64,000 bases of DNA from Ignavibacteriota bacterium (GTDB lineage: Bacteria > Bacteroidota > Ignavibacteria > UBA10030 > CAVZMI01). This document shows positions 13,230-54,134 of this stretch, one piece after another. The translations under genes and the position numbers were made by a program. Position 1 is the stretch's first letter, and each line of letters begins with the position of its first letter. The notes under the pieces are model-generated. The model was given only the letters and a program-made list of their open reading frames with translations. It was not told the origin of the DNA and did not search any database. The DNA lies in assembly GCA_963776275.1 (NCBI GenBank), contig CAVZMI010000023.1, positions 1-64,000 of the forward strand, in the 5' to 3' direction.

Positions 13230-14882
13230 ATGCGCGTCGGACTATTACAACTGAATTTCATCGTTGGTGATCTTGAAGGAAATGCGGAAAAGATCGCCAG
13301 CGCGGTAAAAAATACTCTCGGGGGAAAGGCCGACCTGTACGTTACCTCGGAGCTTTCTCTTCTGGGCTATCCCCCGCGCGATTTGTTGTTACAGAGAAGT
13401 TTTATCGAGCGCGGACTGCGGGTTCTGGAAGAACTTGCACGTAACGTGGCCAAGGGACCACCGGTACTGGTGGGGACGGCGATTCCCAATACCAGTCTGG
13501 CAGGCCGACCTCTTTTCAACAGCGCCGTCTTGCTGCATAAGGGAAGAGTGGGAGTGAGTTTTGCAAAAGCCCTTCTTCCTACTTATGATGTATTCGATGA
13601 GGATAGGTATTTCGAGCCGTCACAATCACCCGGGATCCTCATTATGGAAAGATTACGAATCGGTGTGACGATCTGTGAAGACATCTGGAACGATAAAGAT
13701 TTCATGTCGCGGCAACTTTATATAAGTGATCCCGTCGAGCAGATCATGAAAGCGAGTAACATCGATTTTTTTGTTAACCTTTCCGCCTCTCCCTTTACGG
13801 TCGGAAAACAATCTTTCCGTGAATCGATGTTCTCCAGCATCGCAAAAAAATACAAGGTGCCGATCATTTATGTAAATCAGGTCGGTGGGAATGACGATCT
13901 CGTTTTTGATGGTCGAAGCTGCATCTTCGATCGGGAAGGTGTGTTGATTACCCGGGCGAATTCTTTTAAAGAGGATGTCATCATTGCCGATGTCACGAAA
14001 CGCGGCAGGGTGGAAGAGGATGATTTCACGCCCGAATCAGAAATCTGGCGGGCACTGGTTCTCGGGACCCGTGACTATGTCCATAAATGCGGATTCAAGA
14101 GCGTTCTGTTGGGGTTATCGGGAGGGATCGACTCGGCGTTAACAGCGGCTATAGCTGTTGATGCTGTTGGAAAAGAAAATGTCCTCGGTGTTATGATGCC
14201 CTCCCCATATTCGAGTGGGGGAAGCATCGATGATGCAACCGAATTTACCCGACGGCTCGGGATTCGCACAATAACACTTCCTATTGTTTTAATCATGGGT
14301 GCGTACGCGACAACGTTAAAGGAAGTATTCCGGGATTATCCGGAGGATGTCACGGAAGAAAATATTCAATCGCGAATCCGGGGAAACCTTCTGATGGCTC
14401 TTTCAAATAAGTTTGGTTCACTTCTTTTGACGACGGGAAATAAATCGGAACTGGCAGTCGGGTATTGTACGATCTATGGTGACATGTCGGGCGGACTCGC
14501 CGTTATTGCCGATGTCCCCAAGACAATGATCTATCGGATAGCCCGGTGGGTGAATCTGACTAAAGGGCATCTGATCCCCGAAGAAATCATTAAGAAGCCA
14601 CCGTCGGCCGAGCTTCGACCAAACCAAACCGATCAGGATAGTCTGCCGCCTTATGATATTCTTGACGAGATTCTTCAACGCTTTATTGAATTACATCAAG
14701 GGTATGGAGAGATTATCAGAGCTGGATTCGATCCGGAGATTGTCAACAAAGTTCTTCATCTCGTTCGTATCGCAGAATTCAAACGAAGGCAGGCTGCCCC
14801 GGGACTGAAAGTCACAGATCAAGCGTTTGGTACCGGATGGCGGATTCCTATAGCACGTGCCGATCATGAGAGGATTTTCTGA
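13230..14882 (+). CDS. nadE: Glutamine-dependent NAD+ synthetase
   Basis: Nitrilase domain (GYPPRD, LPTYDVFDEDRYF, ICEDIW) plus GLSGGIDS, ENIQSRIRG, TTGNKSE and PPSAELRPNQ. Confidence 0.96.
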   Translation: MRVGLLQLNFIVGDLEGNAEKIASAVKNTLGGKADLYVTSELSLLGYPPRDLLLQRSFIERGLRVLEELARNVAKGPPVLVGTAIPNTSLAGRPLFNSAVLLHKGRVGVSFAKALLPTYDVFDEDRYFEPSQSPGILIMERLRIGVTICEDIWNDKDFMSRQLYISDPVEQIMKASNIDFFVNLSASPFTVGKQSFRESMFSSIAKKYKVPIIYVNQVGGNDDLVFDGRSCIFDREGVLITRANSFKEDVIIADVTKRGRVEEDDFTPESEIWRALVLGTRDYVHKCGFKSVLLGLSGGIDSALTAAIAVDAVGKENVLGVMMPSPYSSGGSIDDATEFTRRLGIRTITLPIVLIMGAYATTLKEVFRDYPEDVTEENIQSRIRGNLLMALSNKFGSLLLTTGNKSELAVGYCTIYGDMSGGLAVIADVPKTMIYRIARWVNLTKGHLIPEEIIKKPPSAELRPNQTDQDSLPPYDILDEILQRFIELHQGYGEIIRAGFDPEIVNKVLHLVRIAEFKRRQAAPGLKVTDQAFGTGWRIPIARADHERIF

Positions 14883-51479: not shown

Positions 51480-52409
51480 ATGATCAGCATCGTCACCCCG
51501 TCATCCAATAGCGGGAAATATATTCAACAAGCGATCCGAAGCGTTCTTGAACAGGAAGGAATTAAGTTAGACTATATTATTGTCGATGATGGTTCCACAG
51601 ATGAGACTCTCGATATTATACGCTCGTTCGAAAATAGACTGCGCTACATCTCGGAACCAGATCGGGGACAGTCGGAAGCCATCAACAGGGGCATCAGGAT
51701 GTCGCACGGGGATATTATCGGATGGCTTAATGCAGACGATTACTATCACCCGGGAACGCTTCGATTTATTGATGATTATTTTGCGAAGAATCCGGAAGTG
51801 ATGCTTTTGTATGGCGACGGTACGTTGGTGAAAGAAGATGGAACGGTTATAAAACCATTTCCGACAGAGGAGTACTCCCTTGAGAGATTGGCGTATCGGT
51901 GCATTATATGTCAGCCGGCGGCGTTTTGGCGGCGGTCGCTATGGGAAAAAGTCGGACCATTGGATATCTCGCTTCATTATGCGATGGATCTCGATTTCTG
52001 GATCCGTGCAGGTAAAGCTCTTAAACGGCATCCGGAGTGGCGGTTCGTTTATATTCCAAAAGTCTTTGCATATTCTCGAATGCATCGGCACACAAAAACA
52101 ATGGCCCAGCATCGGGAAGTTTTGCACGAAGTTGTCGGGGTAATGAAAAAACATTTCGGCTATGTGTCTTTTCCCTGGGTATATGGAATCGAAGAGGTCC
52201 GCGATCCGCGTTACGACGGGATCATCAAGAAAAGTCCGGTTTCCTTCTCATTGATTGCAAAGAGCCTAATAAAATGGATATGGCAGAACAGGATGCGGCC
52301 CGATCACATTATTCACTTTATCGGTATGGTCCTATTTTCGCCCCGAAAGAGCTGGCAGACAATGATGGAGAGAACAAGAGATGAAGAGGAGGGGTCGAGA
52401 GCGAAGTAG
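51480..52409 (+). CDS. GT2 glycosyltransferase
   Basis: Motifs ISIVTPS, DRGQSEAINRG, WLNADD, CQPAAF and MDLDFW. Confidence 0.9.
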   Translation: MISIVTPSSNSGKYIQQAIRSVLEQEGIKLDYIIVDDGSTDETLDIIRSFENRLRYISEPDRGQSEAINRGIRMSHGDIIGWLNADDYYHPGTLRFIDDYFAKNPEVMLLYGDGTLVKEDGTVIKPFPTEEYSLERLAYRCIICQPAAFWRRSLWEKVGPLDISLHYAMDLDFWIRAGKALKRHPEWRFVYIPKVFAYSRMHRHTKTMAQHREVLHEVVGVMKKHFGYVSFPWVYGIEEVRDPRYDGIIKKSPVSFSLIAKSLIKWIWQNRMRPDHIIHFIGMVLFSPRKSWQTMMERTRDEEEGSRAK

Positions 52410-52440
52410 AAGCTCTTTATTGAAGTGGCTATATCTAAGG

Positions 52441-52644
52441 AAAAAGTAAAAATTAAAAATGAAAAAGTAAATCCTTCGACCCTTCGACTTGCCTCGACTG
52501 GTGGTTCGACCGTTTGATAAGGTCTCGACAAGCTCGACCCAAGGCTCACGGCAAGCAAGCATGTCCCGAGTATATCGAGGGGCTCACCACAAGCTCGGCA
52601 CGAGCCGCTCAGGGCAGGCATGCTCAGGACAAGAATTAAAAAGT
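52441..52644. repeat. A-rich 7-mer tandem tract (AAAAA[GT][TG]) interrupted by nested hairpin elements
   Basis: AAAAAGT AAAAATT AAAAATG AAAAAGT AAA|AATT AAAAGTT. TCTAAGGAAAAAG is shared with the left arm at 12690. Confidence 0.7.
52472..52633. repeat. Seven nested 22-24 nt REP-like hairpin units
   Basis: Manual un-nesting yields seven units of the form stem-TCGAC-N2-3-GCTC-stem'-CARG that sum exactly to 162 nt. Confidence 0.85.
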
Positions 52645-52681
52645 TTATCCCACGTAGCGATACTAAGTGATAAGAAGCGAT

Positions 52682-52750
52682 TTGACTTTTAATAGGGAAA
52701 ACCTTATTTTTACTCAATGTACTGAGTAAAAATACTCAACATAGTGAGTA
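52682..52750 (+). promoter_or_regulatory. Putative sigma70 promoter followed by two tandem palindromic operators
   Basis: TTGACT-17-TATTTT (52682-52710); TACTCA-N6-TGAGTA at 52711-52728 and 52733-52750. Confidence 0.7.
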
Positions 52751-52760
52751 AATTAATGCC

Positions 52761-53948
52761 ATGACATATAAAAGGCCGCAATTTCATCGACTTCGTTCGA
52801 GATTGGAAGAGCGCAGAAAATTCATCCAGGTGCTCTCCGGACCACGGCAGTGTGGTAAAACGACGCTCGCACGGCAGGTCGCGGACTCTCTGAAAATACC
52901 GACGCATTTTGTCTCCGCCGATTCACCCGTCCCGTATAATTCATCATGGGTCGAGCAGCAATGGGAAACTGCTCGGTTCCTTGCGACGAAAGACAGTCGA
53001 AACGGTACGGTGCTAATACTCGATGAAATCCAAAAAGTAGCCGGCTGGTCGGAAGTTGTGAAGAAGTTATGGGATGAAGATACCGCAAATAAACGCAATG
53101 TGAAAGTGCTCATTCTCGGTTCCGCGCCGCTCCTCGTGCATCATGGACTCACAGAGAGCCTTTCCGGACGCTTCGAATTGATACAACTCTCCCATTGGAG
53201 TTATGCCGAGATGCGCGATGCTTTCGGTTGGAGCCTTGAACAATTTATTTTTTTTGGAGGATATCCCGGTTCTGCCGATCTCGTCGATGAACCGGAGCGA
53301 TGGTCTCACTATATCCAGGATTCGCTCATTGAAACAACCATATCACGCGATGTTCTCCTTATGACACGGATCGACAAACAGGCACTCCTCCGCCAATTAT
53401 TCAGGGTCGGTACGGCATATTCCGGCCAGATTGTATCATACCAGAAGTTGCTCGGACAGTTGCACGATGCAGGAAATACGACAACGCTTGCACATTACTT
53501 GCATATTCTGTCCGATGCCGGACTGTTAACCGGCCTTCAGAAATATTCCGGCTCCCAGATACGCCAACGATCTTCAAGCCCGAAATTCTTGGCCCTTAAC
53601 AATGCGCTCATTACTGCTCAATCGCAATATAGTTTTCAGGAGGCACAGCAAAAGAGAGATGTTTGGGGCAGACTTGTTGAATCCGCTGTCGGCGCTCATT
53701 TGTACAACAGCAGTATAGGGACAAATGTCAAAGTGATGTACTGGCGCGAGGGTTCACGCGAAGTCGATTTCATAGTCCAGAATGGAATGAATATTACAGC
53801 CATTGAAGTAAAAAGCGGAAGAGTAAACGATACCATCCCCGGAATGGAATCTTTTACCAGACAATACAAACCCAAAAGAAAATTGCTCATCGGTGATAGA
53901 GGAATTTCGGTGAAGGATATTTTACTTACATCCGCCGTCGAATGGTGA
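52761..53948 (+). CDS. AAA_14 ATPase with DUF4143 and a C-terminal PD-(D/E)XK-like motif
   Basis: Motifs GPRQCGKTT, LILDEIQ, LGSA, ESLSGR, GGYP, GRLVES and EVDF...IEVKSG. Confidence 0.9.
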   Translation: MTYKRPQFHRLRSRLEERRKFIQVLSGPRQCGKTTLARQVADSLKIPTHFVSADSPVPYNSSWVEQQWETARFLATKDSRNGTVLILDEIQKVAGWSEVVKKLWDEDTANKRNVKVLILGSAPLLVHHGLTESLSGRFELIQLSHWSYAEMRDAFGWSLEQFIFFGGYPGSADLVDEPERWSHYIQDSLIETTISRDVLLMTRIDKQALLRQLFRVGTAYSGQIVSYQKLLGQLHDAGNTTTLAHYLHILSDAGLLTGLQKYSGSQIRQRSSSPKFLALNNALITAQSQYSFQEAQQKRDVWGRLVESAVGAHLYNSSIGTNVKVMYWREGSREVDFIVQNGMNITAIEVKSGRVNDTIPGMESFTRQYKPKRKLLIGDRGISVKDILLTSAVEW

Positions 53949-54134
53949 AAAAAAAGAAAATATTTAGGGTCGGGGTCTAGGTCGGGAATTTTTTTAGAGA
54001 TGGTTGTACGTAAGCAGCCATACAGATATTATATAAATCTTTTGTCTTCGCTCTGTCAATACAGTCGTTCTTTTTGGAAATAATCAACGATGTGCGTCGG
54101 ATTCCTGCAACCGAATTTCATCACAGAAGACATC

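What the first reader, a model, noticed from the sequence alone, without database searches (positions are those of the whole stretch)
52472..52633. Nest of seven ~23-nt hairpin micro-elements inserted into one another without target duplication
Seen: removing inner segments in turn reconstitutes seven units. These are TCCTTCGACATGCTCAGGACAAG (outer), CCCTTCGACTCCGCTCAGGGCAGG, TGCCTCGACTGCTCGGCACGAG, GTGGTTCGACAAGCTCACCACAAG, CCGTTTGATAAGCTCACGGCAAG, GGTCTCGACAAGCTCGACCCAAG (innermost, intact at 52521-52543) and a minus-strand unit CCCCTCGATATACTCGGGACATG (52560-52582). Their lengths (23+24+22+24+23+23+23) sum to the full 162 nt; a few boundaries can slide by 1 nt. Stems co-vary (TCCT/AGGA, CCCT/AGGG, TGCC/GGCA, GTGGT/ACCAC, CCGT/ACGG, GGTC/GACC) around a near-constant TCGAC..GCTC core and a CAAG/CAGG-like tail. 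Removing the whole nest restores the flanking 7-mer period (AAA|AATT), so there is no TSD. Inference: these are very small non-autonomous mobile hairpins that target the core of their own kind. HUH enzymes (RAYT, IS200/605 TnpA) are established hairpin-guided, TSD-free mobilisers, but none is encoded in this window.
Basis: partly seen in the sequence, partly recalled or inferred. Interest (0 to 1): 0.88.

Follow-up and report, generated by a model that had tools for sequence, protein, structure and literature searches.

The report
Nested 23-base mobile hairpin repeats
This intergenic stretch is a real pile-up of seven tiny (22-24 base) hairpin repeats sitting inside one another; they belong to a widespread family of very small mobile elements of a kind already described in cyanobacteria, and what moves them is still unknown.

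Summary
Window 52472-52633 parses into seven 22-24 nt units (4-bp co-varying stem, TCGAY..RCTC loop, C-R-R-G tail) nested up to six deep inside a heptamer tract. A peeling script recovers all seven. Genome-wide it finds 42 reconstituting nestings, against 0 in three controls.

The units behave as discrete insertions. In 12 orthologous locus pairs with a same-genus genome I found six indels of exactly 23-24 nt and four of 44-67 nt. None has a target duplication. One is a unit nested inside another unit in only one genome.

Targets are loops of their own kind, loops of GTAGG...CCTAC REP hairpins and other hairpins, and one A-rich motif. Composites recur and probably also move as blocks, so seven separate events are not needed.

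The genome is a Bacteroidota MAG. A covariance model also hits 26 of 151 cyanobacterial genomes (there inside heptamer arrays) and 17 of 88 genomes of a third phylum. Full hairpins also occur in viral contigs.

This matches the small dispersed repeats of Elhai et al. 2008, whose text I could not read.

The HUH/RAYT link is weak, and the richest outside genome has no Y1 gene. Reads did not confirm the locus.

Verdict: real, new member of a known kind, mobiliser unknown.

The parts
52441..52471 (+). Left flank: heptamer tract AAAAAGT AAAAATT AAAAATG AAAAAGT AAA. It holds the A-rich target motif (..GGAAAAAGTAAA^).
   Evidence: Read. The same motif is filled by a TCCT unit at C23:67857 and C8:34340, and the empty form GAAAAAGTAAAAATTAAAAAG occurs 7 times.
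52472..52479 (+). TCCT unit (outermost), 5' part TCCTTCGA
   Evidence: It is the last intact unit left after peeling.
52480..52489 (+). CCCT unit, 5' part CCCTTCGACT
   Evidence: An uninterrupted copy sits in the same host unit at C23:67864-67888.
52490..52500 (+). TGCC unit, 5' part TGCCTCGACTG (the last G may belong to the next unit)
52501..52509 (+). (G)TGGT unit, 5' part GTGGTTCGA
   Evidence: TGGT is the commonest stem type in the genome (17 intact).
52510..52520 (+). CCGT unit, 5' part CCGTTTGATAA
52521..52543 (+). GGTC unit, intact and innermost: GGTCTCGACAAGCTCGACCCAAG
   Evidence: Covariance model R1 scores it 35.1 bits, E 6.1e-6. The same unit sits in the same position of a CCGT/CCGC unit at C18:178400, C18:214620, C31 and C38:31105.
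52544..52555 (+). CCGT unit, 3' part GCTCACGGCAAG
52556..52559 (+). TGGT unit, loop remnant CAAG between its two inserts
52560..52582 (-). CCCC unit on the minus strand (CCCCTCGATATACTCGGGACATG), intact; its outer stem pair is mismatched
   Evidence: The same arrangement (minus-strand CCCC-type unit just before CTCACCAC) is at C5:3165, C8:56147 and C38:31088.
52583..52593 (+). TGGT unit, 3' part CTCACCACAAG
52594..52604 (+). TGCC unit, 3' part CTCGGCACGAG
52605..52618 (+). CCCT unit, 3' part CCGCTCAGGGCAGG
52619..52633 (+). TCCT unit, 3' part CATGCTCAGGACAAG
52634..52644 (+). Right flank AATT AAAAAGT, which continues the heptamer period
51480..52409 (+). Upstream gene, family-2 glycosyltransferase. 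The nest begins 62 nt after its stop codon.
   Evidence: ORF; Pfam PF00535, E 1.8e-27. 97% identical in same-genus genome G001.
52761..53948 (+). Downstream gene, AAA_14 + DUF4143 ATPase. Together with the nest it lies in a roughly 1.6 kb stretch that the G001 orthologous locus lacks.

Best explanation
The nest is a pile-up of very small (22-24 nt) non-autonomous mobile repeats of the small-dispersed-repeat (SDR) kind. Each unit is a 4-5 bp stem of free but self-complementary sequence, a conserved loop TCGA-Y-N(1-4)-R-CTC, and a 3' tail C-R-R-G (or TAAA). Copies are put in precisely, with no target duplication and 0-2 nt of junction ambiguity. They land at places that are single-stranded when DNA is extruded or unwound: the loop of another unit (anywhere between TCGA and CTC), the 3-nt loop of GTAGG-N7-loop-N7-CCTAC REP hairpins, loops of other hairpins, and the A-rich site GTAAA^AATT. 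Nested composites behave as units themselves, being copied to new sites and amplified in tandem. The window nest therefore probably arose in about three or four steps: a TCCT unit in the A-rich site, a CCCT unit in its loop, then a TGCC-framed composite carrying TGGT[CCGT[GGTC]][minus CCCC]. Shown here: the anatomy, the recurrence, the discrete gain/loss at orthologous and paralogous sites, the target classes, and the cross-phylum spread. Inferred: that the substrate is single-stranded DNA, and that a trans-acting activity recognises the conserved loop and tail. That activity is not identified; Y1 HUH enzymes are only weakly supported.
For: Anatomy and non-chance: (42 reconstituting nestings against 0 in three controls). 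Family: 81 units with family tails in 56 loci. Stem types are TGGT 17, CCCT 16, TGTC 15, CCCC 11, CCGT 10, TCCT 9, GGTC 7; the loop TCGACAAGCTC occurs 43 times. R1 gives 83 matches in G000 and 48 in G001. Discrete gain/loss: in 12 G001/G000 orthologous pairs with 93-97% flank identity there are six indels of exactly 23-24 nt, each one unit (L145, L185, L187, L188, L190, L191). There are four composite indels of 44-67 nt (L176, L189, L190, L191). In three loci the unit is conserved (L175, L179, L181). At L187 a CCGT unit sits inside a GGTC unit in G001 only. Paralogous sites: the A-rich motif is filled at three sites and empty 7 times. REP loops of 3 nt occur 12 times. Of four 27-nt loops, three hold a TGGT unit (C2 twice, C28:49999); C28:46792 has a 145-nt nest. 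Composites: plus the tandem 46-nt TGGT[CCGT] array at C28:91.1-91.7 kb. Units are depleted in coding sequence: 21 of 81 lie in ORFs of 150 aa or more, which cover 83% of the genome. Spread: R1 matches at E<=0.001 in 24 of 151 genomes of the own phylum, 26 of 151 cyanobacterial genomes and 17 of 88 of a third phylum. In viral contigs, 33 of 85 occurrences of a 14-mer core carry a full 4-bp stem, where 1 in 64 is expected. Nestings were also seen in loci of an order relative, a cyanobacterium and the third phylum (4 of 51 loci peeled).
Against: The direction of each indel (insertion or precise deletion) is not polarised by an outgroup. The stems are thermodynamically weak. The whole nest folds at -23.6 kcal/mol, z -0.40, and 66 of 200 shuffles fold as well. 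Seven single units fold at -2.2 to -3.4 kcal/mol, z -0.3 to -1.7. A free hairpin is therefore not shown, and the stem pairing in alignment A1 was imposed by my selection. There is no orientation bias relative to GC skew (21 against 25 loci), so nothing points to a replication-strand-specific single-strand route. No mobilising gene was found. The locus itself has no read-level confirmation. Identity with a published SDR family could not be checked, because the paper is not held.
Confidence: 0.78

Rival explanations
1. The units are REP-like substrates of a Y1 HUH enzyme (RAYT or IS200/IS605 TnpA) encoded elsewhere in the genome. It would cut and rejoin single-stranded hairpin DNA.
For: G000 has nine PF01797 matches. 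They include three RAYT-like genes with the HxH and Y motifs (C38:31286-31921 intact, C23:132292-132963, C2 broken). One nest lies about 100 nt upstream of the C38 gene. HUH transposition leaves no duplication (established knowledge of IS200/IS605). Across 41 relatives the Y1 match count and unit count correlate weakly: Spearman rho 0.375, p 0.016, with kin not independent. 6 of 9 unit-rich genomes (6 or more units) have a RAYT-like match at E<1e-30, against 8 of 32 unit-poor ones.
Against: The RAYT genes are flanked by their own GTAGG...CCTAC REPs, not by the units; the units lack GTAG. 7 of the 9 Y1 loci have no unit within 3 kb. Eight genomes with a strong RAYT-like match have 0-2 units. 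G028 (99% complete, 7 units) has no Y1 match. G399, with 55 or more units, has none either, though its completeness is unknown. In cyanobacteria only 2 of 8 genomes with 5 or more units match this RAYT at E<=1e-10. There is no conserved target tetranucleotide and no strand bias.
Confidence: 0.17
2. No dedicated enzyme is involved. The units spread by host replication or repair, through template switching or break repair at extruded hairpins that copies a unit from another locus. Nests then grow because every new unit offers a new loop.
For: Targets share a structure (loops) rather than a sequence. Junctions show 0-2 nt microhomology. Unit-rich genomes without Y1 genes exist. Tandem amplification of units and composites is common (C4:18784-18899, C16:27835-27955, C28:91.1-91.7 kb).
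Against: The insert boundaries are exact and the same in every copy (stem start to C-R-R-G tail), which a loose repair process would not be expected to give. The loop and tail are conserved across three phyla, which suggests recognition by a specific factor. The distribution is patchy (0 matches in most genomes) although all bacteria replicate and repair.
Confidence: 0.15
3. The units move through RNA: a small hairpin transcript is reverse-transcribed and integrated.
For: Only indirect support: the units are intergenic and could be co-transcribed with neighbours, and stem covariation is equally compatible with RNA pairing.
Against: There is no poly-A, primer-binding or other retroelement mark, and both orientations occur in one nest. 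No Rfam family matches. No RNA run holds the locus, so expression is untested. I did not test reverse transcriptase co-occurrence.
Confidence: 0.07
4. The stretch is not mobile DNA. It is either an assembly artefact of a repeat-rich metagenome bin, or a long structured palindrome or protein-binding array that evolved in place.
For: The genome is a 38-contig bin with 5.3% contamination. No read set confirms the locus, and the exact 34-nt nest junction is absent from the metagenome contig collection.
Against: Nests of the same grammar occur at 20 or more loci in G000, in the separately assembled genome G001 and in other phyla. Identical free-standing units occur at unrelated loci. Orthologous sites differ by whole units. 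The nest is no more stable than shuffled sequence, which argues against selection for one long hairpin.
Confidence: 0.04

Closest known systems
Small dispersed repeats (SDR1-8) of Nostoc punctiforme and relatives: Elhai, Kato, Cousins, Lindblad, Costa, Genome Res 2008;18:1484. The paper is not held. I saw only citing passages; further details are recalled from its abstract.
   Same: Unit size (21-27 nt there; 22-24 nt here). A dispersed family with a shared hairpin and compensatory stem changes. Embedding in tandem heptamer repeats. Units nested in one another. Precise insertion at a fixed point of a short target (SDR5 between bases 3 and 4 of HIP1, passage). Unknown mobiliser (origin listed as unresolved). 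Units with the same core as here (for example CCCTTCGACAAGCTCAGGGCAAG) occur in 26 of 151 cyanobacterial genomes, two of the eight loci read lying inside gactaat and taactga heptamer arrays.
   Different: The host here is a Bacteroidota bin with no excess of HIP1 (85 copies). A citing paper states that no SDR-like repeat was found outside Nostocaceae among HIP1-rich cyanobacteria. Here the family also appears in a third phylum and in viral contigs. REP-hairpin loops are a target class here. Nesting reaches six levels. Whether the unit equals a numbered SDR family could not be checked.
REP / REPIN elements mobilised by RAYTs (Nunvar 2010 and Ton-Hoang 2012, both recalled; Bertels and Rainey 2011, PMC3116915, abstract and passages read)
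   Same: Short extragenic palindromic repeats in hundreds of copies that form hairpins, with no target duplication. RAYT genes and classical GTAGG...CCTAC REPs are present in the same genome.
   Different: The units have no GTAG head, are not arranged as inverted doublets, do not flank the RAYT genes, and sit inside REP loops as guests. Co-occurrence with RAYT is weak.
IS200/IS605-derived miniature elements (PATEs) and IS608-type single-strand transposition (recalled)
   Same: Hairpin-bearing and free of target duplication, with single-stranded DNA as the presumed substrate.
   Different: Those have two different subterminal hairpins, insert 3' of a fixed tetra- or pentanucleotide, are 100 nt or more, and show replication-strand bias. 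Here there is one 23-nt hairpin, no fixed target and no bias.
IS elements that target REP or BIME loops (IS1397 and others; titles seen in the reference list shown)
   Same: Hairpin loops of extragenic palindromes serve as an insertion target.
   Different: Those are full-length, transposase-encoding IS elements. Here the guest is a 23-nt non-coding unit.

Membership tests
SDR (small dispersed repeats, Elhai et al. 2008) | Unit of 21-27 nt, dispersed in many copies | tested here: met
   Units are 22-24 nt. There are 83 R1 matches in G000 and 81 regex units in 56 loci. The size range comes from recall and the passage (21 nt for SDR5).
SDR (small dispersed repeats, Elhai et al. 2008) | Common hairpin supported by compensatory changes | tested here: met
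   Seven or more stem types surround one loop. In viral contigs 33 of 85 core 14-mers have a matching stem, against 1 in 64 expected. The 100% pairing in A1 was imposed by selection. Folding energies are weak.
SDR (small dispersed repeats, Elhai et al. 2008) | Often embedded in tandem heptamer repeats | tested here: met
   The window flanks are heptamers. Cyanobacterial loci L206 and L207 sit in heptamer arrays. G001 locus L190 does too. The feature itself is recalled from the abstract.
SDR (small dispersed repeats, Elhai et al. 2008) | Units nested within one another; precise insertion | tested here: met
SDR (small dispersed repeats, Elhai et al. 2008) | Sequence match to a published SDR consensus | not testable with these tools
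   The paper is not held. Motif strings find no relevant paper in the library.
SDR (small dispersed repeats, Elhai et al. 2008) | Host range: heterocystous cyanobacteria (Nostocaceae) | tested here: not met
   The host has a bacterial rpoB whose best solved relatives are the Porphyromonas gingivalis and Flavobacterium taeanensis polymerases. The same units do occur in 26 of 151 cyanobacterial genomes, whose families are not named to me.
REP / REPIN with RAYT | Conserved GTAG head followed by a palindrome | tested here: not met
   No GTAG in 41 aligned units. GTAGG...CCTAC hairpins are a separate family in this genome.
REP / REPIN with RAYT | Copies flank the cognate RAYT gene; co-occurrence across genomes | tested here: inconclusive
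   One nest lies upstream of the C38 RAYT. 7 of 9 Y1 loci have no unit within 3 kb. 6 of 9 unit-rich against 8 of 32 unit-poor relatives carry a RAYT-like gene. G399 and G028 have units but no Y1 match.
REP / REPIN with RAYT | Inverted doublets as the replicating unit | tested here: not met
   Units occur singly, nested or in direct tandem.
IS200/IS605-type miniature elements | Insertion 3' of a fixed short target, two distinct end hairpins, strand bias | tested here: not met
   The flanks share no consensus. Each unit has a single hairpin. 21 loci are on the G-rich strand against 25 on the other.
IS200/IS605-type miniature elements | No target-site duplication | tested here: met
   Empty and filled sites.
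DDE-type MITEs | Terminal inverted repeats plus a target-site duplication | tested here: not met
   No duplication is present. The 3' tail has no inverted partner at the 5' end.

The most novel reading that the evidence does not exclude
The 23-nt units are one pan-bacterial family of self-nesting hairpin elements, shared almost letter for letter by Bacteroidota, Cyanobacteriota, at least one further phylum and phage-like contigs. They would be moved by an activity that is not a Y1 HUH transposase, either an unrecognised enzyme or a host replication/repair route that reads the TCGAY..RCTC loop and C-R-R-G tail. The cyanobacterial SDRs would then be one local view of a much wider and still unexplained kind of mobile DNA, the smallest known.
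Probability: 0.33. Interest if true: 0.8.

Novelty: new member of a known kind. Interest (0 to 1): 0.5.

Why it matters
How elements of about 23 nt, too small to carry ends for a classical transposase, copy themselves has been open since the cyanobacterial SDRs were described. A 2011 paper still lists their origin as unresolved.

This genome and its same-genus partner give a clean set of filled, partly filled and empty sites with exact boundaries. The family's presence in at least three phyla makes a phylogenetic-profile search for the mobiliser feasible.

The elements also matter for annotation. They create spurious ORFs and break assemblies. They mark hairpin loops, REP elements and heptamer tracts as hot spots of structural change between close strains.

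Tried and rejected
Rfam: no match at gathering score in the window. Only chance-level rows in 52300-52800.

Read support: the look-up of sequencing runs listed four DNA runs with shares of 0.04-0.06 and no RNA holder. Laid contigs from 3 of 4 runs cover only 52502-52560 (the CCGT[GGTC] composite), 52704-52754 and 52815-52874, with unrelated flanks. None spans the nest. The nest is therefore neither confirmed nor contradicted by reads.

Metagenome contig scans: the 34-nt nest junction and a 31-nt composite stretch each gave 0 exact matches. Plasmid collection: no match to the 162-nt nest at E<=1.

Taxon: no 16S and no mcrA. NadE of the window is closest (about 65%) to Methanotrichaceae records, which misled me briefly. 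The protein atlas gave no taxa.

Search for an autonomous parent: two TGTC units 2.6 kb apart at C12 flank a duplicated intergenic module with a glycosyltransferase-like ORF and two small ORFs, not a transposase. IS200-type Y1 genes have no units within 3 kb.

Five arbitrary genomes of other phyla (handles G331-G335) gave no R1 match, as did five cyanobacterial bins.

Literature: Elhai 2008 is not held under its PMC id or PubMed id. Generic phrases such as 'nested hairpins' found nothing relevant. Neither did the core motif strings, where the two 14-nt strings occur in no held paper. Neither did six short peptide motifs recalled from, or translated from, such repeats. 'Not in print outside cyanobacteria' therefore rests only on these searches of an incomplete library and on recall. 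Supplements were not consulted.

I rejected CRISPR (no spacers; units abut or nest) and a single long functional hairpin (fold z -0.40).
Full report
THE OBSERVATION. It lies between a family-2 glycosyltransferase gene (51480-52409) and an AAA_14/DUF4143 ATPase gene (52761-53948), both on the plus strand.

I wrote a script that finds intact units: a 4-bp stem, T[CT]GA, 2-6 free bases, CTC, then the complementary stem. It removes a unit with its tail and asks whether a new intact unit forms across the junction. On 52401-52700 it returns GGTC, CCGT, minus-strand CCCC, TGGT, TGCC and CCCT units and leaves a TCCT unit. That makes seven in all.

The 162 nt are fully used (23+24+22+24+23+23+23). One G slides between two units. 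The TGGT unit carries two inserts, one after TCGA and one after CAAG. Taking the nest out restores the heptamer period AAAAAGT AAAAATT AAAAATG AAAAAGT AAA|AATT AAAAAGT with no duplicated bases.

NOT CHANCE, NOT UNIQUE. The whole genome (3.70 Mb, 38 contigs, 45% G+C) has 167 intact units by the strict pattern. Block shuffles give 50, 51 and 60, and the reversed genome gives 24.

Peeling all 212 loci gives 42 removals that reconstitute an outer unit. Two shuffled genomes and the reversed genome give 0. Other deep piles are at C31:2923-3322 (7 units), C5:3042-3434 (6) and C18:178134-178572 (5). At C28:91078-91738 a two-level composite TGGT[CCGT] is repeated in tandem with a 46-nt period.

Units fall into stem types: TGGT 17, CCCT 16, TGTC 15, CCCC 11, CCGT 10, TCCT 9, GGTC 7. 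They share a loop (TCGACAAGCTC 43 times) and a tail (CAAG 36, CAGG 21, CGAG 11, TAAA 8).

In an alignment of 41 distinct units the stem pairs are complementary by my selection. One loop pair that I did not select for also co-varies: C-G 26, T-A 12, other 2 of 40 distinct rows. I have no explanation for that pair, because it would close a two-base loop.

MOBILITY: PARALOGOUS SITES. The outer TCCT unit sits in ..GGAAAAAGTAAA^AATTAAAAAG... The same motif holds a lone TCCT unit at C8:34340. At C23:67857, 15 kb beyond the window, it holds a TCCT unit containing only the CCCT unit, with the same unusual loop letters as in the window. The similarity of the three sites ends about 14 nt to the left and 10 nt to the right of the insert. 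The unfilled motif GAAAAAGTAAAAATTAAAAAG occurs 7 times.

Classical REP hairpins GTAGG-N7-(3-nt loop)-N7-CCTAC occur 12 times with an empty loop. Of four with a 27-nt loop, three have the same loop split by a TGGT unit (C2 twice, C28:49999). One, C28:46792, has a 145-nt nest.

MOBILITY: ORTHOLOGOUS SITES. The same-genus genome G001 carries 48 R1 matches. I fetched 20 of the 29 G001 places that one search listed and added 2 G001 loci that the search itself had returned. These 22 loci hold 24 of the 29 places. 12 of them could be aligned end to end with G000, at 93-97% identity in aligned columns.

In these 12 pairs there are six indels of exactly 23 or 24 nt, each a single unit (L145, L185, L187, L188, L190, L191). 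Four are composite indels of 44-67 nt (L176, L189, L190, L191). In three loci the unit is shared with no indel of 8 nt or more (L175, L179, L181). One is a tandem-array length difference (L184).

At L187 a CCGT unit lies inside a GGTC unit in G001, while G000 has the GGTC unit whole. At L189 G001 has a three-level nest where G000 has the bare A-rich site. At L145 and L188 the guest sits in the loop of an unrelated hairpin. The junctions allow 0-2 nt of sliding and show no duplication.

I cannot say which state is ancestral. The window's own orthologous locus is uninformative. G001 keeps the glycosyltransferase (97% identity) but lacks about 1.6 kb containing both the nest and the ATPase gene.

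HOW THE NEST WAS BUILT. Composites recur. GGTC inside CCGT/CCGC, at the same loop position, is seen at the window, C18:178400, C18:214620, C31 and C38:31105. A minus-strand CCCC-type unit just before CTCACCAC of a TGGT unit is seen at the window, C5, C8 and C38. Pieces matching 52502-52560 also turn up with foreign flanks in contigs of three environmental runs.

Either each type has a strict preference for one host loop, or composites are copied whole. The tandem 46-nt array and the shared rare variants of the two-level outer composite favour the second. I therefore read the window nest as three or four events, not seven. This is inference.

WHO CARRIES IT. The genome is bacterial: rpoB is over the curated cut-off and there is no mcrA. 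Its RpoB aligns full-length best with PDB 8DKC and 9N9P. A preprint identifies 8DKC as the Porphyromonas gingivalis polymerase and deposits 9N9P with its Flavobacterium taeanensis structures (passages). The phylum is therefore Bacteroidota. The tallies suggest a class other than the one holding the largest family, but no names are given to me.

A covariance model of the unit (R1; 24 positions, 4 pairs) matches widely.
- In 41 order-level relatives: 83 times in G000, 48 in G001, 16, 14 and 10 in one other genus, 6-8 in four further genomes, and 0-3 in the other 32 (at most 150 candidates scored per genome).
- In a phylum sample: 24 of 151 genomes match at E<=0.001.
- In the phylum of a Phormidesmis bin, that is cyanobacteria: 26 of 151 genomes match, several with 9-17 copies. 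The eight loci read there carry the same core. In one the unit splits a gactaat array, and in another a taactga array.
- In the phylum (88 genomes held) of a bin titled 'uncultured Pseudomonadota': 17 of 88 match, one with at least 55 copies.
- In IMG/VR contigs: 33 of 85 occurrences of the 14-mer TTCGACAAGCTCAG in the 80 loci returned have a complementary 4-bp stem of varying sequence, where 1 in 64 is expected.

Peeling 51 fetched loci from other genomes found nestings in 4. These were one order relative, one cyanobacterium and two of the third phylum.

WHAT MOVES IT. No Y1 gene is in the window. The genome has nine PF01797 matches. They include three RAYT-like genes whose flanks carry GTAGG...CCTAC REPs, not the units. 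Only 2 of the 9 Y1 loci have a unit within 3 kb, about what density alone predicts.

Across the 41 relatives, 6 of 9 unit-rich genomes and 8 of 32 unit-poor ones have a strong RAYT-like match. PF01797 is in 33 of 41 genomes. Its count correlates weakly with unit count (rho 0.375, p 0.016, kin not independent).

Against a Y1 requirement: G028 (7 units, 99% complete) and G399 (55 or more units) have no PF01797 match. Only 2 of 8 unit-rich cyanobacteria match this RAYT. Unit orientation shows no bias relative to GC skew (21:25 loci). The units are intergenic: 21 of 81 lie inside ORFs of 150 aa or more, which cover 83% of the genome.

The hairpins are weak. The nest folds no better than shuffles (z -0.40), and single units reach only -2.2 to -3.4 kcal/mol. 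If pairing matters, it is probably read by a protein.

My best account is a trans-acting activity that recognises the conserved loop and tail and inserts copies into unpaired DNA. The activity is unidentified.

WHAT IS KNOWN. The closest description is the small dispersed repeats of Nostoc punctiforme (Elhai et al. 2008). I could not read that paper. Citing passages give a 21-nt SDR5 inserted precisely between bases 3 and 4 of HIP1. They also state that no SDR-like repeat was found outside Nostocaceae among HIP1-rich cyanobacteria, and that the origin of SDRs is unresolved. Heptamer embedding, shared hairpin and mutual nesting are recalled from its abstract.

Every one of those features is met here, and the same units occur in cyanobacterial genomes. 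I therefore file the window's nest as a new member of that known kind. The points that look new are the Bacteroidota host, the third phylum and the viral contigs, REP loops as targets, and six-level nesting. That rests on searches of an incomplete library.

LIMITS. There is no read confirmation of the locus. The indels are not polarised. R1 E-values are rough, and only 52-150 candidates per genome were scored. Genome names are hidden. The co-occurrence tests involve related genomes.

Noticed in passing
window 52704-52754: A second short repeat just upstream of the ATPase gene (..TACTCAATGTACTGAGTAAAAATACTCAACATAGTGAGTAAAT..) also matches contigs of three environmental runs with unrelated flanks. 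It may be an operator-like or mobile motif tied to AAA_14/DUF4143 genes.
   Followed up: no
window 52389-53990: About 1.6 kb holding the nest and the AAA_14/DUF4143 ATPase gene is absent from the orthologous locus of same-genus genome G001, where about 41 unrelated bases stand instead.
   Followed up: partly
alignment A1 columns 10 and 15 (for example window 52529 and 52532 in the GGTC unit): The loop letters after TCGA and before CTC co-vary (C with G 26 times, T with A 12, other 2 of 40 distinct rows), although they would enclose only two bases. This was not selected for and is unexplained.
   Followed up: partly
G000 C38:31286-31921, C23:132292-132963, C2:7205-7830 (outside the window): Three RAYT-like Y1 genes (one broken) are flanked by GTAGG..CCTAC REP hairpins. 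A REP carrying a TGGT unit lies inside the broken C2 copy.
   Followed up: partly
G000 C4:18784-18899, C16:27835-27955, C25:17172-17247, C28:91078-91738 (outside the window): Head-to-tail arrays of single units (23-25 nt period), and of a two-level composite (46-nt period). The C4 array differs in length between G000 and G001.
   Followed up: partly
window 13230-14882: The NAD+ synthase is most similar (about 65%) to Methanotrichaceae archaeal records rather than to bacterial ones among the 80 loci returned. This could be old gene transfer, or own-lineage records being withheld.
   Followed up: no
window 1-64000: Nearly all large ORFs are on the plus strand and many are glycosyltransferases or sugar-nucleotide enzymes, so this is a long polysaccharide-synthesis cluster. 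Four ORFs of 651-933 aa have no NCBIfam match.
   Followed up: no
G000 C12:56300-60000 (locus L343): A 2.2-2.6 kb direct duplication of an intergenic module carries terminator-like hairpins and TGTC units. It encloses a small two-gene pair (a 109-aa ORF and a 102-aa ORF) that I took for a toxin-antitoxin-like pair from its size and layout; neither was scanned against a family library.
   Followed up: no
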